Positions 3,030 to 47,932 of a DNA stretch of 64,000 nt are shown here, in pieces. The DNA lies in NCBI GenBank assembly GCA_963840225.1, contig CAWIYH010000002.1, positions 135,934 through 199,933 on the forward strand, written 5' to 3'. Below the pieces are notes generated by a model. That model was not told where the DNA came from. It saw only the letters and a list, made by a program, of their open reading frames with translations, and did no database searches. The first letter of the stretch is position 1; each line of letters opens with the position of its first letter. The DNA comes from an uncultured Acidobacteriota bacterium (GTDB lineage: Bacteria; Acidobacteriota; Vicinamibacteria; Vicinamibacterales; CAVVIG01). The position numbers were made by a program, and so were the translations under genes.

Positions 3030-3356
3030 ATGTCGATGCCACGCGCCGCGACACGGTCCGACGCGTTCAACGCCATCGCTGAACCCCGCCGTCGAGACAT
3101 CCTGGACTATCTCGCCGCTCGCGAGCACCCGGTCGGAGACATCGTCGAGGCGCTGGGGCTCGCTCAGCCGTCGGTCTCCAAGCACCTTCGGGTGCTTCTC
3201 GATGTCGGACTGGTCGAGGTGAGGCGCGACGGACGGCAGGCGTTCTATCGCACCAACCCGGAGCGGATCAGGCCGCTGCACGAGTGGGCCGGCCGGTTCG
3301 AGCGCTACTGGCGGCGTCAGCTCACGAGGGTGAAGGAGCGGGCCGAGCGGCCGTAG
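3030..3356 (+). CDS. ArsR/SmtB-family transcriptional regulator (contains no Cys)
   Basis: AEPRRRDILDYLAAREHPVGDIVEALGLAQPSVSKHLRVLLDVGLVEVRRDGRQAFYR is a canonical ArsR wHTH. Confidence 0.9.
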   Translation: MSMPRAATRSDAFNAIAEPRRRDILDYLAAREHPVGDIVEALGLAQPSVSKHLRVLLDVGLVEVRRDGRQAFYRTNPERIRPLHEWAGRFERYWRRQLTRVKERAERP

Positions 3357-3387
3357 CCGATCGACAAGAAGGCCAGGAGGACAGCAC

Positions 3388-3837
3388 ATGACCGCCATCG
3401 CACCACCGCTCGACAACGTGTCACTCGACGTCACCGAGGAGATTCTCGTACGCGCGCCGCTCGACGCGGCGTTCGCTGCCCTGCTCGAGGAGATGGGGCC
3501 GTCGAACGAGGGGCACAACCGCACGCCGATGCCGATGACGCTGGAGCCATGGCCCGGCGGCCGGTGGTTCCGCGACCTCGGCGAAGGCAACGGCCACCTG
3601 TGGGGCCACGTGCAGGCCATCAAGCGGCCGGCGCTGCTCGAGATCGCCGGCCCATTGATGATGTCCTTTGCCGTGGCGTCAAACCTCCAGTACCGGCTCA
3701 AGGAGACCGACGGCGGCACCTTGATCACCCTGCGTCACACGGCGCTCGGGTTGTTTCCCGACGGATACCGCGAGGCGCTCACGCAAGGCTGGACGCAACT
3801 GTTCGACCGCATCCGGAGCCGCCTCGAGACGGTCTGA
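3388..3837 (+). CDS. SRPBCC / AHSA1 (Aha1-like) domain protein
   Basis: The ArsR-SRPBCC pairing is typical. Motifs seen are EILVRAPLDAAFAAL, PWPGGRWF and GHVQAIKRPALLE. AGGAGG RBS present. Confidence 0.85.
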   Translation: MTAIAPPLDNVSLDVTEEILVRAPLDAAFAALLEEMGPSNEGHNRTPMPMTLEPWPGGRWFRDLGEGNGHLWGHVQAIKRPALLEIAGPLMMSFAVASNLQYRLKETDGGTLITLRHTALGLFPDGYREALTQGWTQLFDRIRSRLETV

Positions 3838-5972: not shown

Positions 5973-7595
5973 CTAGATTCCGCCGCCCGGTCGGGTGACA
6001 ACCGACTGAGTGTCCGACGCCGACGCAGCCGCCGACGACGAGGGGCCGGCCTGCTGCACGGCCTCGAAGTCGACGAGCGCCAGGTCGTAGGCCAGGATGG
6101 CCGCCAGCTCGCTCGTCTTCGCCTGCGTCAGGTCGCGCTGAGCCTGGATCACGAGAAAGCTCGTCGACATCCCGACGTCGAAGCGCTTGCGCTCGGCGTC
6201 CAGCCGCTCTTCGGCAAGCACCCGCGCCGCGCGCGTGGTCTCGATGCGCTTGGCGTTCATGCCGATCTTCCGCCACGCATCGCGGACCTGCTGCACGGCC
6301 CTCGACGCGTCGGCCTTCAGCCGCTCGGCCGACTGCCGCTGCTCGAGGCGGGCCCGGGCGTAGTTGGCGTCCTCGGTCGCCTGGCCGAGCGGATAGTTCA
6401 CGCTGACCCCCACCGTCCACGTCGGGTAGTCGTTGCTGAAGACCTGGTTCAGCACCGACCCGAAGTCGACGCCCGGGCCGGCGCCGATCACGTTGCCGGG
6501 GAACCCGCCGTCGCGCAGCAGCTGCGTGCCGCCGAGGCCGCTGGCGAGGTAGCTGGCGTTCACCCGCACGTCGGGCAGGCGCTGATTGCGCGTGAACTTC
6601 ACGCCGATGCCCGAGCTCTCGATGTCCTTGCGGGCGCGCGCGAGGTCGGCGCGGTCGCGGAGCGCGTTGGTCACGGCGGCGTCGAGGTCGGGCGACGCGA
6701 GGCCGACGGGCGGGGAGTCCACGGGCTGGATCTGCACGTTCCAGACGCTCCGATCGCTCGTGTCGAAGATGAGCGTGCGAAGCTGGTCCTCGATCTCCTT
6801 GACGGTCGTCTCGGCGATGATGACCTGCTCCTGATCCGCGGCGGCCTCCGCCTGGGCCGACACGAGATCGAGCGGCGGCGACTGGCCGACGTCGACCTTG
6901 GCCCGGTTCACCCGCACGAGCTCCTGCGCCAGCTCGAGCGCCGACTTGCGCGCGCCCACGTTGGAAATGGCGGACACGAGGTTCCAGTACGCGCTCTTCA
7001 CGTCCGCCGTCGTGTGCACGATCGCCTCGCGCAGCCGGGTGTCGGCCACGTCGCGATCGATGCGGCTCTCGGCCACCTGCTGCCGCGCGGGGTCGATCGC
7101 CAGGTCCCGCAGGAGCGGCTGCGACACGTCCAGCTCGAGGCCCGACTGCAGAACCGGGTTGTAGCTGTTGAGGACGCTGTCGCTGTTGGTGTGGGTCGCG
7201 TTCCACGACAGGCTGTACGACGTCCCGAACCAGGGCAGCTTCTGGTCGAAGCCCACTTTCGAGGTGACCGCGTCGGTGCGCGTGGCGGTCGGGACGAGAA
7301 AGCTCGCGGGCGGCTGGAGCTGGTTGTTCCGCTGCAGGCGCGTGTTGAAGACCGGCCGGAACGCCCCGGCGGCGGCCGCCACGCTCGTGTCGCCAATCTG
7401 CGGGTCCAGGCGCGCCGCGGCAAGGTCGACGTTGTGGTCGATCGCCATCCTGACGGCGTCGTCCACCGACAGGCGCAGCGTGGCCGGCGCGGCCGATCCA
7501 GCCGGCGCCGGGGTCTGGGGCGCGGCCGGCGCCTGCCCGTGCAGGGTCGCGGCCACGCCGGCCCAGATGAGTGCGGTCAGAAGTCTTCTCTGCAT
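5973..7595 (-). CDS. TolC-like outer-membrane efflux factor
   Basis: ATG 7595 opens a signal peptide MQRRLLTALIWAGVAATLHGQ. There are two OEP repeats (LSVDDAVRMAIDHNVDLAAARLD..., LDAAVTNALRDRADLARARKD...). It lies directly downstream of the RND gene. Confidence 0.9.
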   Translation of the reverse strand: MQRRLLTALIWAGVAATLHGQAPAAPQTPAPAGSAAPATLRLSVDDAVRMAIDHNVDLAAARLDPQIGDTSVAAAAGAFRPVFNTRLQRNNQLQPPASFLVPTATRTDAVTSKVGFDQKLPWFGTSYSLSWNATHTNSDSVLNSYNPVLQSGLELDVSQPLLRDLAIDPARQQVAESRIDRDVADTRLREAIVHTTADVKSAYWNLVSAISNVGARKSALELAQELVRVNRAKVDVGQSPPLDLVSAQAEAAADQEQVIIAETTVKEIEDQLRTLIFDTSDRSVWNVQIQPVDSPPVGLASPDLDAAVTNALRDRADLARARKDIESSGIGVKFTRNQRLPDVRVNASYLASGLGGTQLLRDGGFPGNVIGAGPGVDFGSVLNQVFSNDYPTWTVGVSVNYPLGQATEDANYARARLEQRQSAERLKADASRAVQQVRDAWRKIGMNAKRIETTRAARVLAEERLDAERKRFDVGMSTSFLVIQAQRDLTQAKTSELAAILAYDLALVDFEAVQQAGPSSSAAASASDTQSVVTRPGGGI

Positions 7596-7610
7596 GTTGC
7601 CGATCCCCAA

Positions 7611-10600
7611 TCAGGAAGGAGCCCCGACCAGTTCGGGCTCCTCGGCCGCCGGCGCGGCATCCACCACCCGAGCGACGGCTCTGTGTGTCCGGGCGACGAG
7701 CACGTAGATCGACGGCACGATGAACAGGGTGAAGGCGGAGCCGATCACCATGCCCGTCACCAGCATCATGCCGATGCTGTTGCGCGCTCCGGCCCCGGGA
7801 CCCGTCGCAAAGACCAGCGGCAGATGGCCCATGACGGTCGCCGCCGTCGTCATCAGGATCGGCCGCAGCCGCGTCGAGGCGGCCTCGACGACCGCCGCCA
7901 GGCGATCCCGCCCCTGTTCCTGGAGCTTGTTGGCGAACTCCACGATCAGGATGCCGTTCTTGGACACCAGGCCGACGAGCGTGATGAGGCCGATCTGGCT
8001 GTAGATGTTGAGCGTCGTCAGCCCGAGAAACGAGAACATGAGCGCGCCCGACAGGGCGAGCGGCACCGACCCGGCCAGGATGATGAACGGGTCGCGGAAG
8101 CTCTCGAACTGGGCGGCGAGCACCAGGTAGATCAGGATGCCGGACAGGGCGAACGTGCCGAGGAAGTGGCCGCCCTCGGTCCGAAGCTGCCGCGACTGCC
8201 CGGCGTAGTCGATCGTGAAGCCCTGTCCCGGCGGCAGGATGCGGTGCGCCTCGTCTTCGAGGACGCGGAGCGCGCTGTCGAGCGAGACGGGCGGAGGGAT
8301 GACGCCCTGGATGCGGACGGCGTTCAGCTGCTGGAAGCGCTTCAGCTCCCGCGGCTGGGTCGAGGTCTGGAGCGTCGCGAACGTCGACAGCGGAACCAGC
8401 CGGTGATCCGCGCCGGTCACGTACAGGTCCTTCAGCTGATCGGGCGTCAGCCGCCCCGAGCGCTCGATCTGCGGAATCACCTTGTAGCTGCGCCCCTGCA
8501 CGCTGAAGCGGTTCACGTAGTCGCCGCCGAGGAAGGTCGAGAGGTCCTGGCCGGCCTGCGAGAGATCGACCCCCTGCGACCGCAGCTTGTCGCGATCGAA
8601 GACGACCTCGGTCTGCGGCTGGTCGAACTTGAGGTCGGCGTCGGCGAACATGAACAACCCGCTCGACATCGCCTTTTCGACGAGGTCCTTCGCGATGGGC
8701 ACCAGCCGCTCCGGTTCCGCCGTCGAGGCGACGACGAAGTCCACGGGAAAGTCTCCACCGCCGGGGAGCGCCGGAGGCACGGTCGAGATGACGCGCACGC
8801 CCGGAATCTTCGCCAGCCGCGCGGCCGCCTCCACCTGCAGCTCGTTCGTCGTCTTCGTCCGTTCGTCCCACGGCTTGGTCACCATGCCGCCGAATCCGCC
8901 GGCCGGCGAGGTGATCTGGAAGATGCTCTCCGCCTCCGGGAACGACCGGTACACGTCGTGGACCTTTGCGGCGAAGAGCTTCGTCTGGTCGAGCGTCGCG
9001 TTCGGCGCCGCCTGGACGATGCCGAACACCACGCTCTGGTCCTCGGTCGGCGCCAGCTCCTTCTGCGAGAACATGTAGAAGGGCACGATCAGCAGGGCGA
9101 CGATCGCCCACAGGACCAGCACGACCGGCCGGTAGTTCAGCGTGCCCTGGAGCAGGCGGGCGTAGCCGCGCCGCACCCGGTCGAACCGACGATTGATCCA
9201 GCCCGCGAAGCCGCGCTCGGCGTCTCCCGCGCGCAGCAGCCGGGAGGACATCATCGGCGACAGCGTCAGCGCGACGACGCCGGAGACGACGACGGCGCCG
9301 GCCAGCGTGAAGGCGAACTCCCGGAAGAGCGCGCCGGTCAGCCCGCCCTGGAGACCGATGGGCGCGTAGACGGCCGCCAGCGTGATCGTCATCGCGATGA
9401 TCGGGCCGACCAGCTCGCGGGCGGCGGCGAGGGCCGCCTGGACCGGCTTGTGCCCGAGCTCCAGGTGCCGTTCGACGTCCTCCACCACCACGATCGCGTC
9501 GTCGACGACGAGGCCGACCGACAGCACGATGGCGAGCAGCGTCAGCAGGTTGATCGTGAAGCCCGCGACCAGCATCAGGAAGACCGCGCCGACGAGCGAG
9601 ATCGGGATGGCGATTGCCGGAATGAGCACCGACCGCGGCGACCCCAGGAACAGGAAGATCACGACGATGACGATGAGAAGCGTCTCGGTCAGCGTCGAGA
9701 AGACTTCGTGGATGGCGTCCTGGATATACCGGGTCGAGTCGTACGGAATCCCCGCCGTCATGCCCGCCGGCAGCTGGGCCTGGATCTCCTTCATCGCCTC
9801 GCGGACCCGGGCGATCACGTCGAGAGAGTTCGCCGTCGGCAGCACCCAGACGCCGATGAAGGTCGAGTTCTGACCGTTGAACCGCACGTCCGAGTCGTAG
9901 TTCTCGGCTCCCAGCACGACGTCGGCGATCTCGCCCAGCCGGACCACGACCCCCTTGTCCTGCTTCACGACCAGCTGCTTGAACTCGTCGGCCGTCTGGA
10001 GGTTCGTGTTGGCAATCAGGTTCACCGACACCATCGAGCCCTTCGTCTTGCCGAGTGCGGCAAGGTAGTTGTTGTTCGACAGCGCCGCCCGCACCTCGGA
10101 GGGCGAGATCCCGAGGGCGGCCATCTTGTCGGGCTTGAGCCAGATCCGCATCGCGAAGGTGCGATCGTTGAGGATGTCCGCGCGCTGGACGCCGCTGATG
10201 GCGGAGAGCTTCGGCTGCACCACCCGGGTGAGGTAGTCGGTGATCTGGTTCTGGTCGAGATCGCTCGAGGAGAACCCGAGATAGATCGCGGCGAACTGGT
10301 TGTCCGCCGTCTCGAGCTCGATGACCGGCGCCTCGGCCTCCGGCGGCAGGTTGTTGCGCACCTGCGCGACCTTGGCCTGAATCTGCGTCAGCGCCGCGTT
10401 CGTGTCGTAGTTGAGCTTGAGGTGCACGGTAATCGTGCTCACCCCCTGTGCGCTCGACGACTCGAGGTAGTCGATGCCGTCGGCGCTCGCGATCACCCGC
10501 TCGAGCGGCGTGGTGATGAAGCCGCGCACGAGATTCGCGTTGGCGCCGACGTACGCGGTCGTCACGGTCACCACCGCGATGTCGCTGCGGGGTACTGCCG

Positions 10601-10702
10601 CACCGAGAGCGCCCGGACCGACTGGAGCCCGGCGATCAGGATGACGAGGTTGACGACGACGGCCAGAACGGGTCGTCGGATGAACAGGTCCGTCAGCTTC
10701 AT
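7611..10702 (-). CDS. RND (AcrB/MdtB-type) inner-membrane efflux pump with an apparent 1-nt frameshift near the 5' end
   Basis: The 987-aa ORF is a typical HAE1 RND protein. The true N-terminus MKLTDLFIRRPVLAVVVNLVILIAGLQSVRALSVRQYP starts at ATG 10702 in another frame. The span is 3092 nt (3n+2). Confidence 0.9.
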
Positions 10703-11826
10703 TACCGGTCCTCGACCCGCGGCGACGGGTTGTTGGAAGGCCGGACGCTATTGTTCACGAGCACCGCGGCCTTGTTGTGCAGCTTGAATACGCCGGACGT
10801 GACGACTTCCTCGCCGGCCTTGACCCCGGAGAGCACGGCGATCTGGTCGCCTCGGTTCTCTCCCACCTTGATGAACCGCTGGATGACCCCCTTGTAGCTG
10901 GCGCCCTTCGGGTCCTTCAGGCCGGTCACGACGAACACCGAATCGCCGTACGGCGCGTAGCTCACCGCCGACGCGGGCAGGGCGATGACGCTGTCGGCGT
11001 GGCCGAACATCACCGTCGTCTGGACGAACATGCCGGGGCGGAGCCTGCCGTCAGGATTCGCGAACGTCGCCTGGATGTTGACGTTCCGCGTCGCCGGATC
11101 GACCACCGAGTCGAGCGCCGAGATGTGGCCGGCCGGGCCCGCCGCCTCGCCGTCAATCGCGGCGTGCACGGGGGTCCCGACCTTCAGCCGGGCGAGCTGT
11201 TCCTGCGGAACCGCGAAGTCCACGTAGATCGGATGGAGCGACTGCAGCGAGACGATGGCGGTGCCGCCGGAGAGGTACTGGCCGAGATCGACGCGGCGGA
11301 GGCCCAGCACCCCCGAGAACGGCGCCCGAATCGTCTTGCGCGCGATCGTGGCGCGAATCTCGCCGACGTTCGCGTCGGCCTGCTTGTACGCGGCATCCGC
11401 CTGGTCGAACTCGGCCTGCGAGACGACCCGCTCGTCCTTCAGGTTCCGGATCCGCTGCAGGTTGGCGCGCGACAGATCCCGCTGTGCCTGCGCCGCCGTC
11501 AGCTGCGCCTGCTCCTGTCGCGTGTCCAACTGCACCAGCACGTCGCCCTCGTGCACCATCTTTCCGGAGTCGAAGACGATCCGCTCCACGATGCCGGGCA
11601 GATCCGCCGCGACGTCGACGCCGCGGACCGCGGCGACCGTGCCGATGGCGCCGAGCGTCGCGGGCCACCGCGCCTGGCGCGCCACGATCGTGGTCACGGC
11701 CTCGGGCGGCGGCTGGTACGACGCGTACACCGCGATCGCCGCCTTGACCTGCCGGAACTTCACGAAGCCGAGACCGGCCAGGCATAGAGCCAGCACGGTC
11801 AACATGAGGATCATCCGTTTCGCCAT
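10702..11826 (-). CDS. RND periplasmic adaptor (membrane fusion protein, HlyD family)
   Basis: ATG 11826 opens MAKRMILMLTVLALCLAGLGFV (TM anchor), followed by lipoyl/barrel-sandwich motifs. The stop TAA 10704-10702 overlaps the pump ATG (TAATG). Confidence 0.9.
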   Translation of the reverse strand: MAKRMILMLTVLALCLAGLGFVKFRQVKAAIAVYASYQPPPEAVTTIVARQARWPATLGAIGTVAAVRGVDVAADLPGIVERIVFDSGKMVHEGDVLVQLDTRQEQAQLTAAQAQRDLSRANLQRIRNLKDERVVSQAEFDQADAAYKQADANVGEIRATIARKTIRAPFSGVLGLRRVDLGQYLSGGTAIVSLQSLHPIYVDFAVPQEQLARLKVGTPVHAAIDGEAAGPAGHISALDSVVDPATRNVNIQATFANPDGRLRPGMFVQTTVMFGHADSVIALPASAVSYAPYGDSVFVVTGLKDPKGASYKGVIQRFIKVGENRGDQIAVLSGVKAGEEVVTSGVFKLHNKAAVLVNNSVRPSNNPSPRVEDR

Positions 11827-12115
11827 GGGTACCTCTTCATCGCCCGGGGGCGCTCGCGACACCGCCTGTCGCAGATGCGTCCCGCGATGCGGGATCCCTA
11901 CGGCAAATGGAGATCCACTCGGGTGGCGGCCGCCGGCAGAGTGGCCGGACGCCGGGAATACAGCGAGTTCCGGGCGGCCCGCGTCGAACCGACGAAATGC
12001 CGAGCTTGCGATCGGCTGCGTAGCCGCACGCAGGTTGCGCACCTGCGCGCAGTCGCATCAGGGCATCCGTCGGCCGGACGGCCGGCAGAGGCTCACGTCA
12101 CGGGTTTCGCGCGGC

Positions 12116-12130
12116 TGGCCCGCGCCTTGC
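12116..12130 (+). promoter_or_regulatory. sigma-54 (-24/-12) promoter candidate
   Basis: TGGCCC-GCGCC-TTGC against the consensus TGGCAC-N5-TTGC, with GG and GC separated by exactly 10 nt. It sits ~45 nt upstream of ATG 12174 and next to a sigma-54 enhancer-binding protein gene. Confidence 0.5.
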
Positions 12131-12173
12131 CCTGAACGCTGGCGCGGTGGATCGAACCGAGGAGGTCTGGGTC

Positions 12174-12377
12174 ATGTCGCGGCAGGTGGTGGAGTCGGTC
12201 ATCGACAGGCTGCTCGGCGACGAAGAGCTGCGCCTGCGGCTGCTCGAGGATCCAATCGAGGTGCTCGCTGAGCTGCACGCGCGCGGCTTCGGCCTGACGT
12301 CGCGCGAGATCGACGCCTTCATCCAGGCGGACGCGCGCATCTGGTTTCTCGAGGGAGACCACACCCGCGCGAGCTGA
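12174..12377 (+). CDS. small helical protein resembling NHLP-clan / Os1348-like proteins (67 aa)
   Basis: GAGGAGG RBS at 12160-12166. MSRQVVESVIDRLLGDEELRLRLLEDPIEVLAELHARGFGLTSREIDAFIQAD resembles, from memory, nitrile-hydratase-leader-like small proteins. Confidence 0.6.
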   Translation: MSRQVVESVIDRLLGDEELRLRLLEDPIEVLAELHARGFGLTSREIDAFIQADARIWFLEGDHTRAS

Positions 12378-12443: not shown

Positions 12444-14474
<2,031 letters not shown>

Positions 14475-14542: not shown

Positions 14543-15473
14543 CTATCGCTCGGGACGAAAGGTTCCGACGACGGCCTGACTGGGCGTCTGCCAGTCGGTT
14601 ACTTGCGCGTAGCGCTCGCGCCGCCAGCGGTAGGGGAGCTCGACCACCAGGCCGGGACGCGGCGCGCCGACGGCCATCGAGAGCATGTCGTGCAGCACCG
14701 TGCGCTGCTGGGCCACGTGGCCCGGCTCGCCCAGCGCGTGGCCGAAGGGCCAGTGCAGGTACACGAACCGGGGCGCCCGCGCCGCCACGGCGACTTCCTT
14801 CACGAGCGCGACGCCGACCGTCGTCACGCCCTTCGCTTCAATCTCCCTGGCCAGCAGTCCGACGGACCGCGTGCAGATCGGTCAGGCCGGCACCAGCAGA
14901 GCCAGATCGACCTGTGCCGCCCTGATGCGCCGCGCGACGTCCTGAATCGACGGCATGAGCCGCCTGGCGCTGCCCATCAGTCCAAATCCGTAGTGGTGCT
15001 CGGCGAGACGGCCGATCACCCGTTCGGCCTCGAGCTCGCGCAGCCGCTCGAGCGGAAACACCAGGTTGATGTCCTTGAGCGCGTCGGTCCGGTCGGTACG
15101 CCTGGTGCGAGATGGCGAGGTCGCCGGCCCGTGCCGCCTTCGGAATGACCCGGAAGGTCGAATCGCCATTGAGGTTGAAGGGAGGGTCGGTGCGCAGATG
15201 GACGCCGCCGGTCGAGATCAGGACCACCTTGCAGGCCGACAGCGGCTTCTCGAGCGGCGTCCACGGCACGTTCGCGCCGGCGAGGCGCCTGAGCTGCGGA
15301 AGCGCGATGGTCCTGCTGAGCCAACGGCCGATCGCCGCGCCTTCGGCGCTGTTGGTGATCCACCGGGCGAACCATTCATTCAGCCGGCCCGCCCGCGTGC
15401 GGACCGGACCGTCATGTTCGATGCTGTGATGCGTTTGCACGACGGAGGGCGGACGCTGCAACGACGGGACCAT
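14543..15473 (-). CDS. GrdB-like (glycine/sarcosine/betaine/proline reductase component B family) protein; in-frame TGA 14884-14882 is a candidate selenocysteine codon; also has a 1-nt frameshift near 15095
   Basis: Three track ORFs concatenate into one family-typical protein: ...VVLISTGGVHLRTDPPFNLNGDSTFRVIPKAARAGDLAISHQAY / DRTDALKDINLVFPLERLRELEAERVIG...VDLALLVPA-TGA-PICTRSVGLLAREIEAKGVTTVGVALV.... The span is 931 nt (3n+1). Confidence 0.7.
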
Positions 15474-15629: not shown

Positions 15630-17132
15630 TCAGACCGGCATGGCAGCGGCCCTCGCCAGCTTGCGGATGCCTTCGGCGATCGCCTGCTCGTCGTACGCCG
15701 CGAATCCGAGCACGAGACCGGGCCGATCGGCCGCCCTCCGCGACTGCCAGCAGCAGGACGAAAGCGCCCACGCGGAGATGCCGGCGTCGGCTGCCCGCCG
15801 GCTGAGCGCCCGATCGCTGTTCGGTTCGCTCAGCCAACCGATCGTGTGCATGCCGGCCTCCGGCAGCGTGACCGTCATCAGGCCGGCGAGGTTCTGCTCG
15901 ACGGCGCCGACGAGCGCCTCCGCGCGCTCAAGGTAGAGCGTGCGCATTCGACGGATGTGACGCCCGAAGTGCCCTTCGGCGATGAACTCGGCGAGGACGG
16001 CCTGATCCGGTGTCGGCGACTGCCGGTCGGCGATCGCCTTGGCGGCGAGAAATCGATCGACGAAGTCCGACGGGACGATCAGGTACGCGAGGCGGATGGA
16101 CGGAAAGAGCACCTTCGTGAACGTCCCGAGGTAGAAGACACGGTCGCTTCGATCGAGCGCCTGCAGCGCCGGAATCGAGCGCCCCGCGTACCGGTATTCG
16201 CTGTCGTAGTCGTCCTCGAGAATCCACGCGTCGGCGTGCGCCGCCCACTGCAGCAGCTCGAGCCGGCGGCTCAGCGTCATCGTCACGCCTCGAGGGAACT
16301 GATGGGAGGGGGTGACGTAGGCGAGCTTGGCGGTCGGCGCCAGGGCGATGCCGGTCCTGACCGACAGCCCCGATTCGTCGACGGGCACCGGGACGACGTC
16401 GGCGCCGGCGGCTCGGAGCGTTGCGACGGCGCCGGCGTAGCCCGGCTCCTCCATCCAGGCGGGGTCGCCCGGGTCGAGCAGCAAACGCGCGATCAAATCG
16501 ATTCCCTGCTGGGCCCCGCCGACGATCACCACCTGCTCCGGCTCGCCGCGGACGCCGCGGGCGATCCGCATGTAGTCGAGGATCGCGCGGCGCAGTGGCA
16601 GATACCCGGCCGGGTCGCCGTAGCTGAGCAGCGCGTTTTCGCGGGTCTTCCATCGCCGATTCGCGATCCGGCTCCAGAGGTCGAACGGAAACTGGTCGAA
16701 CGCGGGGATGCCCGGGCGGAACGGGCCCGTCACGAGCTCGCGAGAGGTCAGCCGCGGATCCGGGACGAGCAGCCTGGCCCCGAACTGCGACCAGCGGGGG
16801 TCGCGCGGCGCGCGCGGCGCGACCTTCGGCAGCGCCGGGTCGACCGACGTCGTCTGGTCGGGGAGCACGTCGGCGACGAACGTGCCGCTCTTGGCTTCGC
16901 CTTCCAGGTACCCTTCCGCGATCAGCTGCTCGATCGCGTTGAGGACGGTATTGCGCGACACGCGCAGATCGACTGCGAGCACACGCGTGGACGGGATCTG
17001 CTGGCCGGGCGCCAGCGCGCGGCTCAGGATGAGCTGACGCAGCTTCTCGTAGAGCTGACGGTACAGGGGTTCGGCCGACTGGGGATCCGGCGTGAGCGTG
17101 GCGGCGACGGCGGCGGAAGAGACCCGACCCAT
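15630..17132 (-). CDS. MocR/PdxR-type regulator (GntR wHTH + PLP aminotransferase-like domain)
   Basis: PLYRQLYEKLRQLILSRALAPGQQIPSTRVLAVDLRVSRNTVLNAIEQLIAEGYLEGEAKSGTFV, followed by an aminotransferase fold (YGDPAGYLPLRRAI..., FTKVLFPSIRLAYLIVP). Confidence 0.9.
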   Translation of the reverse strand: MGRVSSAAVAATLTPDPQSAEPLYRQLYEKLRQLILSRALAPGQQIPSTRVLAVDLRVSRNTVLNAIEQLIAEGYLEGEAKSGTFVADVLPDQTTSVDPALPKVAPRAPRDPRWSQFGARLLVPDPRLTSRELVTGPFRPGIPAFDQFPFDLWSRIANRRWKTRENALLSYGDPAGYLPLRRAILDYMRIARGVRGEPEQVVIVGGAQQGIDLIARLLLDPGDPAWMEEPGYAGAVATLRAAGADVVPVPVDESGLSVRTGIALAPTAKLAYVTPSHQFPRGVTMTLSRRLELLQWAAHADAWILEDDYDSEYRYAGRSIPALQALDRSDRVFYLGTFTKVLFPSIRLAYLIVPSDFVDRFLAAKAIADRQSPTPDQAVLAEFIAEGHFGRHIRRMRTLYLERAEALVGAVEQNLAGLMTVTLPEAGMHTIGWLSEPNSDRALSRRAADAGISAWALSSCCWQSRRAADRPGLVLGFAAYDEQAIAEGIRKLARAAAMPV

Positions 17133-17214: not shown

Positions 17215-19209
<1,995 letters not shown>

Positions 19210-19410
19210 CCACGCCTCCGACCGCCGCACATAGACACCCGCTATTCCAACGGCATTCGCGGCACAACAAAAGATCCAGATGCAGTCGGACGACAGGAGC
19301 CAAGGGATGAGCGCTCGTCGAAAAGGAGGGACGGCAGACAAGGTCATCCTCTCCAGCCGCTTCTCGCGAGCGTCCGGTGTGGATTACGCTAGGTAATCGG
19401 TGCCACCGAG

Positions 19411-20112
19411 ATGATCGTCCGTCACGTCGATGACCGCCTGCAGCTGATCACCCAGCCCGACCATGCCCACCTGGCTCGGCGCATCATGGAAGCGTGTGCG
19501 CCTCTGGCGGCGCGGCCGCGGCGCGAATCGATCCTCAACGCGATCGGCGAGCACGACAACGGATGGGCGGAGGCGGACGCGGCACCGCTGGCGAGCGCCG
19601 ACACCGGCTCGGTGGTCGACTTCGTAGCGGCGCCGCTGGCCGTCCGGCACGCCGTCTGGCCGCGGGGCGTCGCGCGGCTCGCCGACGATCCCTGGGCGGC
19701 GGCGCTGGTGGCGCAGCATGCGATCACGGTGTACGGCCGGTTCCGGTCCGACGCCGCGTGGACGCCTTTCTTCGCCGAGATGGAAGAGGCGCGCGACGCG
19801 ATGCGCCGCGCGAGCGGCGTGCCGGACGACATTTCGGCCGACTATCCGTTCGTCCGGCTCGGCGACCTGATCTCGCTGGCCCTCTGCACCGGCTCGACCG
19901 ACGAGCATCGCTTCGCCGAATACAGCGTGCGGCTGTCGGGGCACCGGGTCGTCGTCTCGCCCGACGTGTTCGGCGGAGCCGCGATTCCCGTCGAGATTGC
20001 CGCCAGGGAGATCCCCGACCGGCCGTATCGATCCGATGCGGCGCTGCGCGACACCCTGCGCGATGCGCCGCCGACGACGCTTCGGGGCGAGGTCGTGGGG
20101 CAGCGCCGCTGA
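19411..20112 (+). CDS. DUF3891-like protein
   Basis: The N-terminus LQLITQPDHAHLARRIMEA...AIGEHDNGWAEAD is typical of DUF3891 (recognised from memory). Confidence 0.7.
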   Translation: MIVRHVDDRLQLITQPDHAHLARRIMEACAPLAARPRRESILNAIGEHDNGWAEADAAPLASADTGSVVDFVAAPLAVRHAVWPRGVARLADDPWAAALVAQHAITVYGRFRSDAAWTPFFAEMEEARDAMRRASGVPDDISADYPFVRLGDLISLALCTGSTDEHRFAEYSVRLSGHRVVVSPDVFGGAAIPVEIAAREIPDRPYRSDAALRDTLRDAPPTTLRGEVVGQRR

Positions 20113-24292: not shown

Positions 24293-27200
24293 TCACTCGC
24301 GCTCGGCCCGGATGATCCGATACTCCCACGCGCCCGATCGCATCTGCTCGTAGACCATCGACCCGGGCACTGCCAGGAAGTTGTCGATCGCGCTCCCGCC
24401 GCCGAACGCCTGCGAGCGCGTGGCGGCGACCTCGTCGCACGACGCGAGGACGTTGGCCGTGATCGCGCGGTCCTGCGTGATCCGCAACCGGAGCGGCCCG
24501 AGGAGCGCGCGCACTTCCATCCACCGCGGCACCGGCAGGAGATCCGTGTAGAGGAACAGGCCGCCGCTCCTCAGCACCCGTGCGACCTCGCCGTAGAACG
24601 CGCGCAGGTTCGGATAGGTATGCGACGACTCGACGTTGGTGACCACGTCGAACGATCCGGCGTCGAACGGCAGATGCTCGGCGTCGCCGACGTCGAACCG
24701 GACGGCGGGGCGCGTGTGCGTGCGCCGGCAGAACGCGATCGCTTCGGGCGAGAGATCGACGCCCGTCACGTCGGCCTCCCAGCGTTCAGCCATCAGGGCG
24801 GCCGTGCCGCCTCGCCCGCAGCCGACGTCGAGCACCCCGCGCCGGCGCAGGTCGGCGCGGCCGATCAGCTCGAACGCCAGCCGAACCGAGCTTGGATTGA
24901 ACACGCCGGAGGGAACGTCGAATGCCGCCTCGTCGGCGCCGTCTCCGAGGGAGATGTAGCCGTAGTTCAGGAAGAACGACGCGCCGCCGACGCCGGCCCG
25001 CTCCAGCCGGCGCGTGATGTCGTCGTAGAACTCCCGATAGCTCGCCTTCGCGGCGGTCGCAGGCGCGGCGCCCTCGAGCGGAATGGGCGAGGGCGCGCGG
25101 CTCTCGGCGCCGGCCCAGGGAAGGCCGGCCGGCGCATCGTCGGCCCCGCCGGCCGCCTGCGCCTGCTCGACGAACACGGCGAGCTCGGCGATCGTCGGCG
25201 CCTGAAACAGTTTCAGCACGGGCAGCTCGATCTGGAGCCGATCCCGGATCTCGGACGCGACCTGCACGGCGAGCAGCGAGTGGCCGCCCAGATCGAAGAA
25301 GCGATCGTGGATGCCGATCGGGTCGATGGCGAGCTGGTTGCCCCAGATGTCGGCCAGTTCGCGTTCGGTCGCCGTACGCGGCTCGACGAACGCGGTCGTC
25401 AGGTTCGGGCGTGGATGCCGCTCGACCGGCGATCCCTTGGCCGGCGCCGAATCGGCGTGGCGGATCCAGGCCTTCAGCCGCGCCGCGAGGTCGCTGACGG
25501 CCACCAGCAGCCGCGGCCCGACGTCGGCGCCGAGGATCCGCAGGAACGCCTCGAGGCCCTCCGGCGGATGGATGGCGGTCGGCATCGAGGCGGCCTGGGC
25601 CTCGGCGGCGTTGTCCCACAGGTCCCAGCCGATGCTGAGCCAGCCGTCGCCGGCTGCGTCGGCCAGCGCGTCGAGGACGGCGTTCGCGGCGGAATACGCC
25701 GCGAGGCCCAGCCCGCCGAGGACGCTGGCGATCGACGAGTGGAGGACCCAGCGCCGCGGCTCGCGTCCGCGAAACGCCTCCGTCAGGTACAACAAGCCGC
25801 GCAGCTTCGGCGAGAACTGCGCTTCCATGACCTCGATGCCGGTCTCGGCCGCCGACGCGAACGCGGCCGCGTCGATTCGTGCCGCGCCGTGGATGACGAG
25901 ATCGATCCGGCCGAAGCGCTCGAACGCGAGGTCGACGGCCGTCTTCACCTGGTGGCCGTCGTTGAGATCGGCTTTCAACACGAGCACGTCGTCGCGCTCG
26001 GCCCGGAGGCGCGCCAGTCGCGCGAGCAGGTTCCGGTGCTCGGGCGGGGTGGCCGGATCCTCGCCGTGGGCGCGCCACGCCGAGGGCTCGGGCACCGCCG
26101 TGCGGCCGACCAGGATCAGCTTCGCATGCAGCCGCGAGAACATGCCCTCGGCCAGATTGATGCCCATGTGGCCGAGTCCGCCGGTCACCATCACCACCGG
26201 CTGCTCCGGCAGGCCAACGGGCGCGCGGGCCTCGCGAATCTCGACCGGCTCGTAGGTTTCGACCAGCCGCCGTCCACCCCGCAGGGCGACGGCCGGCTCC
26301 GGCGCGCCCGCGGCGAGCTCGGCGACGATCATGTCGGGCACGGCCGCGTCGTCGTCGACGTCGACGTGAGTGACGCGCAGGCCCGGATGCTCCTGCGGGA
26401 GCACTTTGGCCGACCCGATGCCGAGGGCTCTCGCCGCGTCGATCGCGTCGGCCGCCTCCACGCGGCGCGTGCCGCGAGCCACCAGGACCATCGCGAGAGG
26501 GCGAACGGTCGCCTGTCCGCTCAGCGCGTGTGCGAGTCGCATCGGGGCCAGCAGCGTCACGACGCCGGCGACGTCCAGATCGGTCGAGCCGGGCGGTTCG
26601 GCCGTCCAGCAGTCGACGATGCCGGCCAGGCGGTTGTCCCGGGTGCAGACCTGCGCAGCCAGCCGCTTGAAACCCCCGGGATCTGACGGATCGATCGTGT
26701 ACTGGTCGTCGCCGGCGCGATCGAACCGATCGCCCTGCCGCACGACAATCGCGTGAGCGCCGGCGCTCAGGAGCCGGGCGGAGACCGCCGCGCCGACTCC
26801 ACCGCCCTCGTCGAAGACGAGGATGCGCCGCCCGGCGAGCGACCCCGGTGCCCAGGCCACGGGCGCGGCCTCCCGCCAGATCGGCCGATGAAACCAGTTC
26901 GACGTGTCGCGAGCCTCGTGCGCGCGGCGCTCGACGGCGTGCCCGGGCCGCGGGCCGATCCAGTAGGTCCGCCGCTCGAAGGGGTACGTCGGCAGGCTGA
27001 CCCTCGTCCGTCGCTCCGATCGGTGGAATCCGTCCCAGTCGACGCTCGCGCCGCCGGCCCACAGCTGGCCGAGCGACGAGAGCATCACCTCGGTGCCCGA
27101 CCGGCGATCGTGCGCGCCCGGCAGCGACGTCGAACAGGGAGGCGGAGGTCCGCCGTTCCTCGCGATCTCGCTGGCGAAGGTGACCAGCGTGTTGCCAGGG

Positions 27201-29629: not shown

Positions 29630-30603
29630 CGCGCGCCCTCGACCGCGGCGGGGGGAGCCTGGGGAGCGGTCGCGGCGGACGCCTCCTGGCGCGGCTCGGC
29701 GGTGGTCGCCGTGATGCGGAGCGGAATCTCCAGCCGCGGTTCCCCTTCCCGGCTGATGCGCAGTCCGGCGACGTACACGACGTCAGGCTGGTACGTCTCC
29801 CGGTCGAGCACGAGCGATACGACGAGCGTTGTCTCCTCGTTCGGGCCGAGCACGAGATCGCCAGGATCAATCTGGATCGCCGGGACGAAGGCCGGGCCGA
29901 CGCCGTCGGCGCGCCGGACATCGGTCACCTGGCACCGGATCGCCGCCGGCTCGTCGCGCGTGTTCTCGATCGTCAGCGAGAGGGCGGCGCGTTCCCCCGA
30001 GGGTCCGGCCAGGTGCAGCACGGGCGCATCCGCAACCGACGGGTGCGGGGCCGCCAGGACGGCCCGGAGGAGCTCCTCCTGGAAATCGGCCCCGAGGTCG
30101 GTGGCGCCCTGCAGCATGTCGAAGTAGAGCCGGCCCAGGTCGCGGATCTGTTCGGTCGCGCGAGCCGCATAGAAGTTCGAGAACGCGCCCTGGGTTTCCG
30201 GGGCGTCCGCGCGGCCCGCGGCGGCGCGCTCCACTTCGGCCTGATAGTCCCGGACCGCCCGGTGGTTGACCTCGTTGGCGTACTCGACGAGGCGCCGGAG
30301 CCAGGCCATTGGATCGGCGGCGTCGAAGGCCGGTGGCGGATGCGACGCGTGCCCCGCCACCTGCACCAGGCCGGCGAAGAAACACGCGCTCAACTCCGTC
30401 AATCGGGCGGAGTAGGCCGCGCCGCGGGACTCCGAGAGCGCAGACAGAAGGTCACGTACGGTGGCCGGCGACAGTTCGCCCTGGGCCACCCGTCGAAGAA
30501 CGCTGGAGTAGAGATCGAGCGCACGAACCGACCGCTGCGCCGAGCGCATGACGTAGTGCGCATAGGAAGCTGACCAGTCGGCCGATCCCTCCGTCTGCAC
30601 CAT
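29626..30603 (-). CDS. hypothetical protein: phasin-like helical N-half + beta-sandwich-like C-half; translationally coupled to the PKS
   Basis: GGGAGG RBS. Its stop overlaps the PKS ATG (ATGA at 29626-29629). It is a paralog of 32869-33882. No signal peptide or TM segment. Confidence 0.75.
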   Translation of the reverse strand: MVQTEGSADWSASYAHYVMRSAQRSVRALDLYSSVLRRVAQGELSPATVRDLLSALSESRGAAYSARLTELSACFFAGLVQVAGHASHPPPAFDAADPMAWLRRLVEYANEVNHRAVRDYQAEVERAAAGRADAPETQGAFSNFYAARATEQIRDLGRLYFDMLQGATDLGADFQEELLRAVLAAPHPSVADAPVLHLAGPSGERAALSLTIENTRDEPAAIRCQVTDVRRADGVGPAFVPAIQIDPGDLVLGPNEETTLVVSLVLDRETYQPDVVYVAGLRISREGEPRLEIPLRITATTAEPRQEASAATAPQAPPAAVEGAR

Positions 30604-43086: not shown

Positions 43087-43806
43087 TCAGCGCGGGCAGA
43101 CGGGGGTGAGGAACACGAAGGAGCCGCCCGCCGTCCACTCGTCGTCGCTGCGACGGTCCTCCCGTATCGCGTACGACAACCCGGCGCTCAGATCCTGAAG
43201 CGTCAATGTGTACCGCTCGAGCCGCCGCCCCGTGTCGCGATCCTGAACGGCCTGGGCTTCGAAGCCCGCGAGCCTGGGAAACAGGCCCGGACCGGTCAAC
43301 AGCACGGCTTCCGGATTCTCGATCAAAGCGCTGTTCGACGGCAGCTCGAACCGCTCGTGCCTGTCGCTCGCCAGGGCGCTCGAGTAATAGTTGCGCCCGA
43401 ATCCGTCGTGATGCACCGCAAGGTCGAACCTGAGCGCCGGCACGTCGCGGCTCGGGTCCGCGGCGCCCGCGCTGCCCGACGGCGGGCCGCTCCACGTGAG
43501 CGTCACCTGGGGGACCAGGCCCCCGGCGCCGGGGGAAGACACGCATTCGGAAACGACCGCCGGCTCCCAGAGCGCTCCGCCGGGCGTCTTCTCCAGCGTG
43601 ACGACCGGCATGGCCAGCTCGGGAGACGCGCTGATGAACCGGCGCCAGTTCTTCTCGAAGTCGGCGAAGCTCTTGTCCTGGGGTTTGCGGTCGGTGGTGA
43701 CGTCCTGCGTCAGGTCGATGCTGTCCCGATCCCGGCGCTGGGCCCGGCTGCACGCGAACGCTGCGACGAGACACGCCGAGAAGAGCAACGGCGAGACCGC
43801 CTGCAT
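43087..43806 (-). CDS. small secreted protein with N-terminal Cys (possible lipoprotein), copy 2
   Basis: MQAVSPLLFSACLVAAFAC... It ends FLTPVCPR. An alternative TTG start lies at 43824. Confidence 0.7.
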   Translation of the reverse strand: MQAVSPLLFSACLVAAFACSRAQRRDRDSIDLTQDVTTDRKPQDKSFADFEKNWRRFISASPELAMPVVTLEKTPGGALWEPAVVSECVSSPGAGGLVPQVTLTWSGPPSGSAGAADPSRDVPALRFDLAVHHDGFGRNYYSSALASDRHERFELPSNSALIENPEAVLLTGPGLFPRLAGFEAQAVQDRDTGRRLERYTLTLQDLSAGLSYAIREDRRSDDEWTAGGSFVFLTPVCPR

Positions 43807-43833
43807 AGCCCTAGCTATACCCAATCGAAAGGC

Positions 43834-43862
43834 TTGTCAAGCAAAGCTTTGACGTTCATAAT
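43834..43862 (+). promoter_or_regulatory. sigma-70-type promoter TTGTCA-N17-CATAAT
   Basis: AT-rich divergent intergenic region. TTGTCA at 43834-43839 and CATAAT at 43857-43862, ahead of ATG 43877. A TTGACA box on the opposite strand overlaps it. Confidence 0.4.
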
Positions 43863-43876
43863 CCGCCCGGTCGGGC

Positions 43877-46038: not shown

Positions 46039-46042
46039 GCGG

Positions 46043-47929: not shown

Positions 47930-47932
47930 CGC

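What the first reader, a model, noticed from the sequence alone, without database searches (positions are those of the whole stretch)
14543..15473. In-frame TGA at the selenocysteine position of a GrdB-like reductase, with a hairpin 11 nt downstream
ORFs 14882-15169 and 14543-14827 are in the same frame and are separated only by TGA (14884-14882). The joined sequence reads VDLALLVPA-[TGA]-PICTRSVGLLAREIEAKGVTTVGV. This matches the region around the active-site selenocysteine of glycine reductase protein B as I recall it (...TST-U-GTCTRCGATMVKEIERAGIPVV): U-x-x-C-T-R followed by (K/R)EIE..G(I/V). On the mRNA, GCGGUCC-GUC-GGACUGC (14870-14854) can form a 6-7 bp stem that starts 11 nt after the UGA and has G/U in the loop. 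That is the spacing expected of a bacterial SECIS. A Sec-containing GrdB-like protein outside the classical amino-acid-fermenting anaerobes, sitting between a MocR regulator and sigma-54 activators, would be of interest.
Basis: partly seen in the sequence, partly recalled or inferred. Interest (0 to 1): 0.65.

Follow-up and report, generated by a model that had tools for sequence, protein, structure and literature searches.

The report
Selenocysteine codon in PrdB-like gene
The in-frame TGA is a genuine selenocysteine codon, with its RNA hairpin signal, in a stand-alone PrdB-like reductase gene common in soil Acidobacteriota; this kind of selenoprotein is already known, and the copy here also carries a one-base frameshift.

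Summary
TGA (14884-14882, minus strand) joins two same-frame ORFs, and a 7-bp hairpin (14870-14854) starts 11 nt after it.

The Sec reading is strongly supported:
- All 24 non-redundant homologous loci have TGA at this codon.
- The frame downstream evolves as coding sequence.
- Residues between the TGA and any start codon are conserved.
- 15 of 24 full-length distant homologs have Cys in this column (CxxC).
- The five stem codons are frozen at synonymous sites in all 24 loci, while 69 comparable codons vary (Fisher p = 6e-8).
- The hairpin meets all four criteria of the published bacterial SECIS model.

Corrections:
- The protein is closer to D-proline reductase PrdB than to GrdB. It reaches neither family's curated cutoff, and the window encodes no PrdA.
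This is either a sequencing error or a recent inactivation.
- PrdB-type UxxC selenoproteins in aerobic environments have been reported since 2005, so the novelty claim is overstated.

No selA, selB, selC or selD lies in the 64 kb, so the Sec machinery could not be tested. In about half of the loci the gene sits near a sigma-54 activator and an RND efflux operon. Its function is unknown.

The parts
15096..15473 (-). N-terminal coding segment of the PrdB-like gene (residues 1-126, ...AISHQAY), in a different frame from the rest. The start is ATG 15473; TTG 15461 and GTG 15440 are alternatives.
   Evidence: ORF 14838-15473. Homologs read GPxRTRAGRLNE...AISHQAYDRTDAL without interruption.
15095..15095 (-). 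Extra C (one of the CC at 15096-15095) that shifts the frame. Either a sequencing or assembly error, or a recent inactivating insertion.
   Evidence: The window reads CAGGCGTAC-C-GACCGGACCGAC. The 22 homologous loci in which this site was located all read TAC/TAT-GAC/GAT.
14885..15094 (-). Middle coding segment (DRTDALKDINLVFP...VDLALLVPA), ending immediately before the Sec codon.
   Evidence: All 16 predicted homolog proteins aligned (of the best 120) end exactly at ...LLVPA, because gene callers stop at the TGA.
14882..14884 (-). UGA selenocysteine codon (residue 197 of the repaired 309-aa protein), first residue of the U-P-I-C motif.
   Evidence: TGA in 24 of 24 loci. Cys in 15 of 24 full-length distant homologs.
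14854..14870 (-). Bacterial SECIS hairpin GCGGUCC-GUC-GGACUGC: 7-bp stem with one G-U pair and a 3-nt loop starting with GU. It starts 11 nt after the UGA, and the loop is 18 nt from the UGA.
   Evidence: The hairpin appears in the MFE fold and the alignment fold. It folds at -9.4 kcal/mol alone. Stem codons ACG CGG TCC / GGA CTG are invariant in 24 loci, with one GGG that keeps a U-G pair. The loop codon varies: GTC, GTG, GTT. It meets the criteria of the bSECIS model in PMC13188914.
14543..14881 (-). C-terminal coding segment after Sec (PICTRSVGLLAREIE...FRPER) with stop TAG at 14545-14543.
   Evidence: Pairwise divergence by codon position is 0.126 / 0.080 / 0.480 downstream of the TGA and 0.153 / 0.103 / 0.498 upstream. 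Codons +1 to +3 (P, I, C) keep the amino acid while using 4, 3 and 2 different codons.
12444..14474 (-). Sigma-54-dependent activator with GAF domain, immediately downstream. Context only; proposed regulator of the neighbourhood (inferred).
   Evidence: Pfam Sigma54_activat 236.7 bits, GAF, HTH_8. Homologous activators occur near the PrdB-like gene in 7 of 23 non-redundant neighbourhoods, the window included.
17215..19347 (-). Second sigma-54/GAF activator, a paralog 60% identical to the first. Context only.
15630..17132 (-). MocR/PdxR-like GntR-aminotransferase regulator upstream. Not a recurrent neighbour in other loci, so probably unrelated.
   Evidence: NF052282 PdxR 440 bits, above its cutoff of 320. 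Not among the recurrent neighbour clusters.
5973..12057 (-). RND efflux operon: adaptor (about 10702-11827), multidrug-type RND permease (7611-10754) and TolC-like outer-membrane protein (5973-7610). A recurrent neighbour of the PrdB-like gene.
   Evidence: Pfam and NCBIfam. An RND permease lies within 10 kb in 11 of 23 non-redundant neighbourhoods, the window included.
12116..12377 (+). Small NHLP-clan-like ORF (12174-12377, 67 aa), preceded by a sigma-54-type motif TGGCCC-N5-TTGCC (12116-12131). Homologs lie between the activator and the efflux genes in other loci.
   Evidence: NF038399 E = 8e-9, below its cutoff. Sequence, motif, homologs in L001, L002 and L014.

Best explanation
The TGA at 14884-14882 is a selenocysteine codon in a roughly 309-residue, stand-alone PrdB-like protein of the GrdB/PrdB superfamily (PF07355). 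The protein carries a U-x-x-C redox motif.

Decoding. The hairpin at 14870-14854 on the mRNA is a bacterial SECIS. It would recruit SelB carrying Sec-tRNA(Sec) to the ribosome paused at UGA, so that translation continues into the conserved C-terminal 112 residues. This step is inferred from the bacterial Sec pathway, not shown here.

Distribution. The gene belongs to a subfamily found mainly in soil Acidobacteriota. Every member examined has Sec at this position.

Protein function. In a confident model of a Cys homolog, the residue equivalent to Sec is the last loop residue between a strand and a helix. The partner Cys lies in the first turn of that helix. This is the usual geometry of a redox-active CxxC pair. 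The most likely chemistry is therefore a selenol/thiol reductase cycle: Sec attacks the substrate, Cys resolves the intermediate to a Se-S bond, and a thiol system re-reduces it. This is inferred.

The protein is probably not a classical D-proline reductase, because the window encodes no PrdA pyruvoyl subunit.

In about half of the loci the gene lies next to a sigma-54/GAF activator and an RND efflux operon. Four loci have a canonical sigma-54 promoter in front of the gene. A sigma-54-controlled stress or detoxification role is plausible but speculative.

This copy. A one-base insertion at 15095/15096 breaks the frame. As written, the sequence cannot produce the full protein. This is either an assembly error or a very recent inactivation.
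For: - TGA at the same codon in 24 of 24 non-redundant loci.
- All 16 predicted homolog proteins aligned, taken from the best 120, end exactly at ...LLVPA.
- The codon-position divergence pattern downstream of the TGA equals that upstream.
- Residues P-I-C-T-R-S directly after the TGA are conserved with synonymous variation. They precede any possible start codon; in the window the first is GTG at 14827.
- Cys at the U column in 15 of 24 full-length distant homologs.
- All 5 stem codons are synonymously frozen against 0 of 69 others, p = 6e-8. The loop codon varies, and the single stem change keeps a U-G pair.
- The hairpin appears in both the single-sequence and the alignment folds.
- All four bSECIS model criteria are met: 3-nt loop, 7-bp stem, G then U at the start of the loop, 18 nt from UGA to loop, -9.4 kcal/mol.
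- TGA is the commonest ordinary stop in the window (19 of 31 Pfam-supported ORFs), so there is no genome-wide reassignment.
- Family: TIGR04483 PrdB E = 3e-47; PF07355 above its gathering score.
- Model of Cys homolog P0231: pLDDT 92.9, with the CPIC motif at the strand-loop-helix junction.
- Context.
- Sec decoding is documented in Acidobacteria (PMC1794560 Table 2; PMC12013277 Table 2).
Against: - No selA, selB, selD or tRNA-Sec lies in the 64 kb, or within the up to 10 kb of flank held on each side of the homolog genes. The decoding machinery is therefore unverified for this organism.
- The hairpin's folding energy is not better than shuffled sequence (z = 0.26).
- There is no two-sided covariation in the stem, because it never varies.
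- The window copy is frameshifted.
- Scores are below the curated cutoffs of the PrdB (160.9 vs 300), GrdB and TIGR01918 (48.7 vs 65.45) models.
- No solved structure matches by sequence or by fold, and no literature addresses function. The chemistry and the link to efflux are inference only.
- Sigma-54 promoter evidence in front of the window copy is weak. The best motif overlaps the ATG.
Confidence: 0.88

Rival explanations
1. In this particular genome the gene is a recently inactivated pseudogene. The TGA and SECIS are ancestral selenoprotein features, but the one-base insertion at 15095/15096 is real and no full-length protein is made. This could accompany loss of Sec use in this lineage.
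For: The window has an extra C where the 22 homologous loci in which this site was located all read TAC/TAT-GAC/GAT. Other long genes in the window are intact: RND permease 1047 aa, PKS 1829 aa, two activators of about 700 aa. No other split gene was seen, so the assembly does not look riddled with indel errors.
Against: There is no other lesion. Both halves remain 72-81% identical to homologs, the TGA and SECIS are intact, and no premature stop occurs in the correct frames. Single-base indels are a common assembly artefact. Related long-read MAG loci show them too: a 2-nt deletion in the same gene in L025 and a fragmented RND gene in L002. An exact-match scan found no sister sequence for comparison.
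Confidence: 0.35
2. The TGA is an ordinary stop. Two separate proteins are made, a 197-aa N-terminal protein and a roughly 95- to 110-aa C-terminal protein, as current gene callers annotate them.
For: Public annotations call the two pieces as separate genes. TGA is the usual stop codon in this window.
Against: The 6 to 19 codons between the TGA and the first available start codon are conserved as protein, with synonymous variation at P, I and C. The candidate internal start, the Val codon at +7, is GTC or GTT in 6 of 24 loci, including the window, so it is not a conserved start. Distant homologs are single polypeptides with Cys at this column. The frozen hairpin has no explanation under this model.
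Confidence: 0.03
3. The TGA is a chance nonsense mutation of a Cys codon (TGC or TGT to TGA) in this genome, and the hairpin is a coincidence of GC-rich coding sequence.
For: The hairpin's stability is not above shuffled controls. The copy is also frameshifted.
Against: The same TGA is present in 24 of 24 independent species-level loci, with no TGC or TGT in the close subfamily. Stem codons are frozen at p = 6e-8.
Confidence: 0.01
4. UGA is reassigned genome-wide, to Trp or Gly, in this organism.
For: One distant full-length homolog (P0149) has Trp in this column.
Against: 19 of 31 Pfam-supported ORFs in the window end in TGA at the expected protein ends. The 69% GC content and the acidobacterial affinities do not fit any known recoded lineage (my own knowledge).
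Confidence: 0.01

Closest known systems
D-proline reductase subunit PrdB of Clostridium sticklandii and Clostridioides difficile (NCBIfam TIGR04483; Kabisch et al. 1999, as cited in PMC13188914)
   Same: It is the best-scoring family model (E = 3e-47), and the alignment covers 218 of 238 profile positions across the Sec site. It shares the UxxC Sec motif (PMC13188914 table). Sec is decoded at an in-frame UGA.
   Different: The score of 160.9 bits is far below the equivalog cutoff of 300. The window protein has an N-terminal extension of about 65 residues (GPxRTRAGRLNExFARW...), conserved within the subfamily. No PrdA pyruvoyl proprotein or PrdC gene lies in the window, and none is among the recurrent neighbours. 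The hosts are soil Acidobacteriota rather than Stickland fermenters.
Glycine, sarcosine and betaine reductase selenoprotein B: GrdB, GrdF, GrdH (Pfam PF07355; TIGR01917)
   Same: The Pfam GRDB model matches above its gathering score, up to the residue before Sec.
   Different: GrdB is about 430 aa and the match covers only its C-terminal third. The equivalog score is 44 bits against a cutoff of 602. GrdB's UxxCxxC motif is U-P-I-C-T-R-S here, so the third Cys is missing. No grdA, grdC, grdD or grdE is present.
'Proline reductase PrdB' UxxC selenoproteins from aerobic marine metagenomes and from Deltaproteobacteria (Zhang, Gladyshev and co-workers: PMC1088965, PMC2398784, PMC1794560)
   Same: They are short PF07355-type proteins with UxxC found outside amino-acid fermenters. 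Sec forms are much more frequent than Cys forms (42 to 1 in the Sargasso Sea, 235 to 110 in GOS). Their function is unknown beyond a predicted thiol-type redox role.
   Different: Those reports concern marine and deltaproteobacterial sequences. The present subfamily is mainly from soil Acidobacteriota, has the N-terminal extension, and recurs next to sigma-54 activators and RND efflux operons. I did not test whether the marine sequences belong to the same subfamily.
Cys-containing 'glycine/sarcosine/betaine reductase selenoprotein B family' proteins (full-length homologs P0135 to P0265)
   Same: They share the same fold family over the whole length at 26-41% identity. CxxC sits at the U-x-x-C position in 15 of 24, and the motifs DxN..P, E..G..T, PR..FP.G and W are conserved.
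   Different: They carry Cys, or G/S/T/D/N/W, in place of Sec, and they lack the hairpin constraint.

Membership tests
Bacterial selenoprotein gene (general criteria) | The in-frame TGA aligns with Cys in non-selenoprotein homologs (a Sec/Cys pair). | tested here: met
   15 of 24 full-length distant homologs have Cys in the column. The rest have G, S, T, D, N or W.
Bacterial selenoprotein gene (general criteria) | The TGA is conserved in orthologs, and the sequence downstream is under protein-coding constraint. | tested here: met
   TGA in 24 of 24 loci. Divergence by codon position is 0.126 / 0.080 / 0.480 downstream and 0.153 / 0.103 / 0.498 upstream.
Bacterial selenoprotein gene (general criteria) | The genome encodes selA, selB, selC (tRNA-Sec) and selD. 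| not testable with these tools
   None is present in the 64-kb window (Pfam scans of about 50 ORFs; ARAGORN; Rfam). None lies within the up to 10 kb of flank held on each side of the homologs. The rest of the genome is not available. The phylum is known to include Sec users (PMC1794560, PMC12013277).
Bacterial SECIS consensus model (Zhang and Gladyshev, as given in PMC13188914 Fig. 2A) | Apical loop of 3-9 nt and upper stem of 4-16 bp. | tested here: met
   3-nt loop (GUC) and 7-bp stem.
Bacterial SECIS consensus model (Zhang and Gladyshev, as given in PMC13188914 Fig. 2A) | A G in the first two loop positions, usually followed by G or U. | tested here: met
   The loop is G-U-C/G/U in all 24 loci.
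Bacterial SECIS consensus model (Zhang and Gladyshev, as given in PMC13188914 Fig. 2A) | [quoted passage not shown] | tested here: met
   11-nt spacer plus the 7-nt stem arm gives 18 nt.
Bacterial SECIS consensus model (Zhang and Gladyshev, as given in PMC13188914 Fig. 2A) | MFE of -7.5 kcal/mol or lower. | tested here: met
   -9.4 kcal/mol for the 17-nt hairpin alone.
Pfam PF07355 GRDB (GrdB/PrdB superfamily) | Score at or above the gathering threshold. | tested here: met
   29.4 bits against a cutoff of 22. Residues 68-193 match profile positions 213-344 of 347.
D-proline reductase PrdB (TIGR04483 equivalog) | Score at or above the equivalog cutoff of 300 bits. | tested here: not met
   160.9 bits for the frame-repaired protein with X at the Sec position.
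D-proline reductase PrdB (TIGR04483 equivalog) | Partner genes prdA (pyruvoyl proprotein) and prdC alongside. | tested here: not met
   No such family appeared in any window ORF scanned or among the recurrent neighbour clusters of 23 loci. Elsewhere in the genome was not testable.
D-proline reductase PrdB (TIGR04483 equivalog) | UxxC Sec motif. | tested here: met
   U-P-I-C. The motif is as listed for PrdB in PMC13188914.
Glycine reductase GrdB (TIGR01917 equivalog) and TIGR01918 subfamily | Score at or above the cutoffs (602.2 and 65.45 bits); UxxCxxC motif. | tested here: not met
   44.3 and 48.7 bits. The motif is UPICTRS, with Ser in place of the third Cys.

The most novel reading that the evidence does not exclude
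The acidobacterial PrdB-like selenoprotein would be a stand-alone selenol/thiol reductase, not an amino-acid reductase subunit. It would form part of a sigma-54/GAF-controlled module together with a small NHLP-clan protein and an RND efflux pump. That would give the GrdB/PrdB superfamily a new role in stress response or detoxification, in aerobic soil bacteria. No member of the fold family has a solved structure.
Probability: 0.2. Interest if true: 0.5.

Novelty: new member of a known kind. Interest (0 to 1): 0.27.

Why it matters
Gene callers truncate this gene at the TGA in every public homolog examined, so the real 300-residue selenoprotein is missing from most protein databases. Recognising it corrects the annotation of a gene present in at least 25 species-level genomes, mostly soil Acidobacteriota. 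It also adds a clean example of a SECIS that can be detected purely from frozen synonymous sites.

It does not change what is known about selenium biology. PrdB-type UxxC selenoproteins in aerobic habitats have been catalogued since 2005.

The open parts are the function of these stand-alone PrdB-like proteins and the recurrent link to sigma-54 activators and RND efflux. Neither has been studied, and there is no structural precedent.

Tried and rejected
- Folding energy as evidence for the hairpin gave z = 0.26, which is uninformative in 69% GC sequence.
- Covariation: there is none, because the stem is invariant.
- PDB by sequence gave no hit at E <= 1. PDB by fold, using a pLDDT 92.9 model of a Cys homolog, gave no match at E <= 1e-3. 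So there is no structural lead to function.
- Identifying the window's source failed. The exact-protein look-up of the neighbouring activator found nothing. The genome-contig scan gave relatives at no more than 81% identity but not the genome itself. An exact-match scan of metagenome contigs across the frameshift site, allowing or omitting the extra base, found nothing. The question of error versus real mutation stays open.
It was re-run with the C-terminal segment alone.
- A strict sigma-54 regular expression upstream of the gene found nothing. A relaxed scoring gave good motifs in only four to six loci and an ambiguous one in the window.
- Programmed +1 frameshifting at UAC-C-GAC was considered and rejected. 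The extra base is absent from all homologs, and the Tyr tRNA could not re-pair after a +1 slip (inference).
- A literature search for any functional study linking this family to sigma-54 or efflux found nothing relevant.
- The ARAGORN 'tRNA-Thr' at 19671-19761 was dismissed as a false positive inside a DUF3891 ORF.
Full report
**1. The observation**

Reading the minus strand base by base puts TGA at 14884-14882. ORFs 14882-15169 and 14543-14827 share a frame and are separated only by this TGA.

**2. What the gene is**

I repaired the frame and placed X at the TGA. The resulting 309-residue protein matches Pfam PF07355 (GRDB) at 29.4 bits, above its gathering score of 22.

In NCBIfam it matches best to D-proline reductase PrdB: TIGR04483, E = 3.4e-47, 160.9 bits, covering 218 of 238 profile positions across the Sec site. 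It matches far more weakly to GrdF, GrdB and GrdH and to the umbrella model TIGR01918. All of these scores are below the curated cutoffs. The protein is therefore a PrdB-like member of the GrdB/PrdB superfamily and not an equivalog of either enzyme.

The motif is U-P-I-C-T-R-S. That is UxxC, as listed for PrdB in the table of PMC13188914. It lacks the third Cys of GrdB's UxxCxxC.

**3. Homologs end at the TGA**

A search of 5.8 billion proteins gave 479 hits. The best 120 are 180-242 residues long and 68-81% identical. Sixteen of them were aligned, and all end exactly at ...DLALLVPA, the residue before the window's TGA.

I fetched the DNA of homologs from large contigs and from one genome per species. 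The second search returned 25 loci. Most are from soil Acidobacteriota MAGs: Pyrinomonadaceae, Terriglobia, Thermoanaerobaculia and Ca. Angelobacter. Single bins are labelled Methylomirabilis, Acidithiobacillales and Actinomycetota.

After removing duplicates, 24 loci including the window could be aligned at this site. All 24 have TGA at this codon, followed in frame by PICTRSVGLLAREIE.... Locus L027 did not match the motif search and was left out.

**4. Translation continues through the TGA**

- Mean pairwise divergence at codon positions 1, 2 and 3 is 0.126, 0.080 and 0.480 downstream of the TGA (codons +10 to +95). Upstream it is 0.153, 0.103 and 0.498. The coding constraint is the same on both sides.
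- Codons +1 to +3 (Pro, Ile, Cys) keep their amino acid while using 4, 3 and 2 different codons.
- These codons lie before any possible restart. The only nearby candidate start is the Val codon at +7. It is GTC or GTT in 6 of 24 loci, including the window, where the first start codon is 19 codons downstream at 14827.

This rules out the model of two separate proteins.

**5. The column is a Sec/Cys column**

An exhaustive HMMER search with the C-terminal segment found many short fragments, which are the pieces after the TGA in Sec-containing homologs. It also found a set of full-length proteins of 246-495 residues. Twenty-four of these full-length proteins were aligned with the window protein. 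Fifteen have Cys at the TGA column, giving CxxC. The others have G, S, T, D, N or W.

**6. The hairpin**

On energy alone the hairpin is unremarkable: -18.7 kcal/mol for 60 nt against -19.4 +/- 2.7 for shuffles, z = 0.26. The comparative signal is decisive.

- The five codons that form the stem (ACG, CGG, TCC, and then GGA, CTG) are identical in all 24 loci. The one exception is a single GGG, which turns a U-A pair into U-G.
- The loop codon between them varies: GTC, GTG, GTT.
- Every one of the 69 other 4- to 6-fold degenerate codons with a conserved amino acid, from codon -50 to +95, uses several codons. The contrast is 5 of 5 against 0 of 69, Fisher p = 6.2e-8.
- RNAalifold recovers the same 7-bp helix. 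It shows no double covariation, because nothing in the stem varies.

The element meets all four criteria of the published bacterial SECIS model (PMC13188914, Fig. 2A legend):

- a 3-nt loop and a 7-bp stem;
- G followed by U at the start of the loop;
- 18 nt from the UGA to the loop;
- -9.4 kcal/mol for the hairpin alone.

TGA is also the commonest ordinary stop codon in the window, ending 19 of 31 Pfam-supported ORFs. Recoding must therefore be local and dependent on the SECIS.

**7. The frameshift**

The 22 homologous loci in which this site was located all read ...CAC CAG GCx TAC/TAT GAC/GAT CGx ACx GAC... (HQAYDRTD). The window reads TAC-C-GAC, with one extra C at 15095/15096. As written, the window cannot encode the full protein.

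There is no other lesion. The flanking segments remain 72-81% identical to homologs.

Evidence on the quality of the assembly points both ways:

- Other long genes in the window are intact.
- Related long-read MAG loci do carry indels: a 2-nt deletion in the same gene in L025 and a fragmented RND gene in L002.

I cannot tell an assembly error from a very recent inactivation. An exact-match scan for a sister sequence found none. A programmed frameshift is unlikely, because the extra base is not conserved.

**8. Sec machinery**

No selA, selB, selD or tRNA-Sec is present in the 64 kb. None lies within the up to 10 kb of flank held on each side of the homolog genes.

Sec decoding is documented in Acidobacteria. 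PMC1794560 lists three selenoprotein families for the phylum. PMC12013277 lists Occallatibacter riparius among Sec-utilising bacteria.

**9. Context and likely function**

On the minus strand the window reads, in order:

- sigma-54/GAF activator (17215-19347);
- MocR/PdxR-like regulator (15630-17132);
- the PrdB-like gene;
- a second sigma-54/GAF activator (12444-14474), 60% identical to the first;
- an inverted small ORF;
- an RND adaptor, a multidrug-type RND permease and a TolC-like protein.

Across 23 non-redundant neighbourhoods, the window included, an RND permease lies within 10 kb in 11 and a homologous activator in 7.

In L001, L002 and L014, a small protein beginning MSQRxVExLLGR.LTDE.FRR lies between the activator and the pump genes. 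The window's version (12174-12377) hits the NHLP-clan model NF038399 with E = 8e-9, below its cutoff. It follows a TGGCCC-N5-TTGCC motif.

Four loci (L006, L008, L017, L019) have a TGGC-N7-TTGC motif just upstream of the PrdB-like gene. In the two examined closely, L008 and L019, it ends about 40 nt before the start codon. The best motif in the window overlaps the ATG and is ambiguous.

No PrdA- or GrdE-type partner was seen.

An AlphaFold model of a Cys homolog (pLDDT 92.9) places the Sec-equivalent Cys at the end of the loop between a strand and a helix. The second Cys lies in the first helical turn. This is the standard geometry of a redox CxxC pair (my own knowledge). The model has no significant match in the PDB by fold, and the protein has none by sequence.

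I therefore propose that the protein is a stand-alone selenol/thiol reductase, possibly under sigma-54 control and linked to an efflux or stress module. This is inference. No experiment or paper addresses it.

**10. Comparison with what is known, and verdict**

PrdB-type UxxC selenoproteins outside amino-acid fermenters are well documented:

- 42 Sec forms and 1 Cys form in the Sargasso Sea (PMC1088965);
- 235 Sec forms and 110 Cys forms in the GOS survey (PMC2398784);
- entries for Anaeromyxobacter and Geobacter (PMC1794560);

NCBI and JGI already label close homologs as selenoprotein B or PrdB.

The finding is a correct identification of a selenoprotein gene and its SECIS. It is a new, mainly acidobacterial member of a known kind. 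The one-base frameshift went unnoticed, and the Sec machinery is unverified. Interest is modest. The unexplored points are the function of the subfamily and its recurrent neighbourhood with sigma-54 activators and RND efflux genes.

Noticed in passing
window 15095-15096 (-): A one-base insertion (TAC-C-GAC against TAC-GAC in all homologs) splits the PrdB-like gene into two frames.
   Followed up: yes
window 12116-12377 (+): A 67-aa ORF (12174-12377) with a strong Shine-Dalgarno sequence and a weak hit to the NHLP-clan model NF038399. It is preceded by a sigma-54-type motif TGGCCC-N5-TTGCC. Homologous small ORFs sit between the sigma-54 activator and the RND adaptor in L001 (3659-3949), L002 (4159-4443) and L014 (about 3234-3500). 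In the window the ORF is inverted relative to the operon.
   Followed up: partly
L006:945, L008:9873, L017:64, L019:509 (+); window 15472-15457 (-): TGGC-N7-TTGC sigma-54-type motifs lie just upstream of the PrdB-like gene in four loci (about 40 nt before the start codon in L008 and L019). The window's best candidate, TGGTCCCGTCGTTGCA, overlaps the ATG at 15473. If it is real, the start codon would be GTG at 15440.
   Followed up: partly
window 12444-14474 and 17215-19347 (-): Two paralogous sigma-54 activators with GAF domains, 60% identical over 633 aligned residues, flank the MocR gene and the PrdB-like gene.
   Followed up: partly
L010:2326, 3971, 5591, 11868 (+): In a MAG labelled Methylomirabilis, four near-identical TGGCAC-N5-CTGCA promoters lie downstream of the PrdB-like gene. 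Three are followed within about 45-55 nt by an ATG.
   Followed up: no
window 24293-29782 (-) and about 43800-60600: A 1829-aa type I polyketide synthase (KS-AT-KR-ACP-methyltransferase). Further on there is a cluster of three PhyH-type dioxygenases, a B12-binding radical SAM enzyme, KAS III, glycosyltransferases, a DegT aminotransferase and an ABC-2 exporter. Together these look like a lipid or polysaccharide biosynthetic region.
   Followed up: no
window 19671-19761 (+): ARAGORN calls a 91-nt 'tRNA-Thr' inside the DUF3891 ORF 19393-20112. Rfam reports no tRNA there, so it is probably a false positive.
   Followed up: yes
L025:5818-5870; L002:5611-8710: Related long-read MAG loci carry indels. 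There is a 2-nt deletion in the PrdB-like gene of L025, just after the SECIS. The RND permease of L002 is broken into at least five pieces. This bears on how much weight the window's frameshift deserves.
   Followed up: partly
L004:9001-9993, L009, L025 (cluster C13): A conserved protein of about 330 aa, with no Pfam or NCBIfam match, lies between the RND permease and the PrdB-like gene in three loci. A fourth copy in L019 lies apart from the gene.
   Followed up: partly
model m7fcf838faa62 (P0231): A confident AlphaFold model (pLDDT 92.9, pTM 0.92) of a Cys-containing family member has no PDB fold match at E <= 1e-3. The GrdB/PrdB fold appears to have no solved structural relative.
   Followed up: yes
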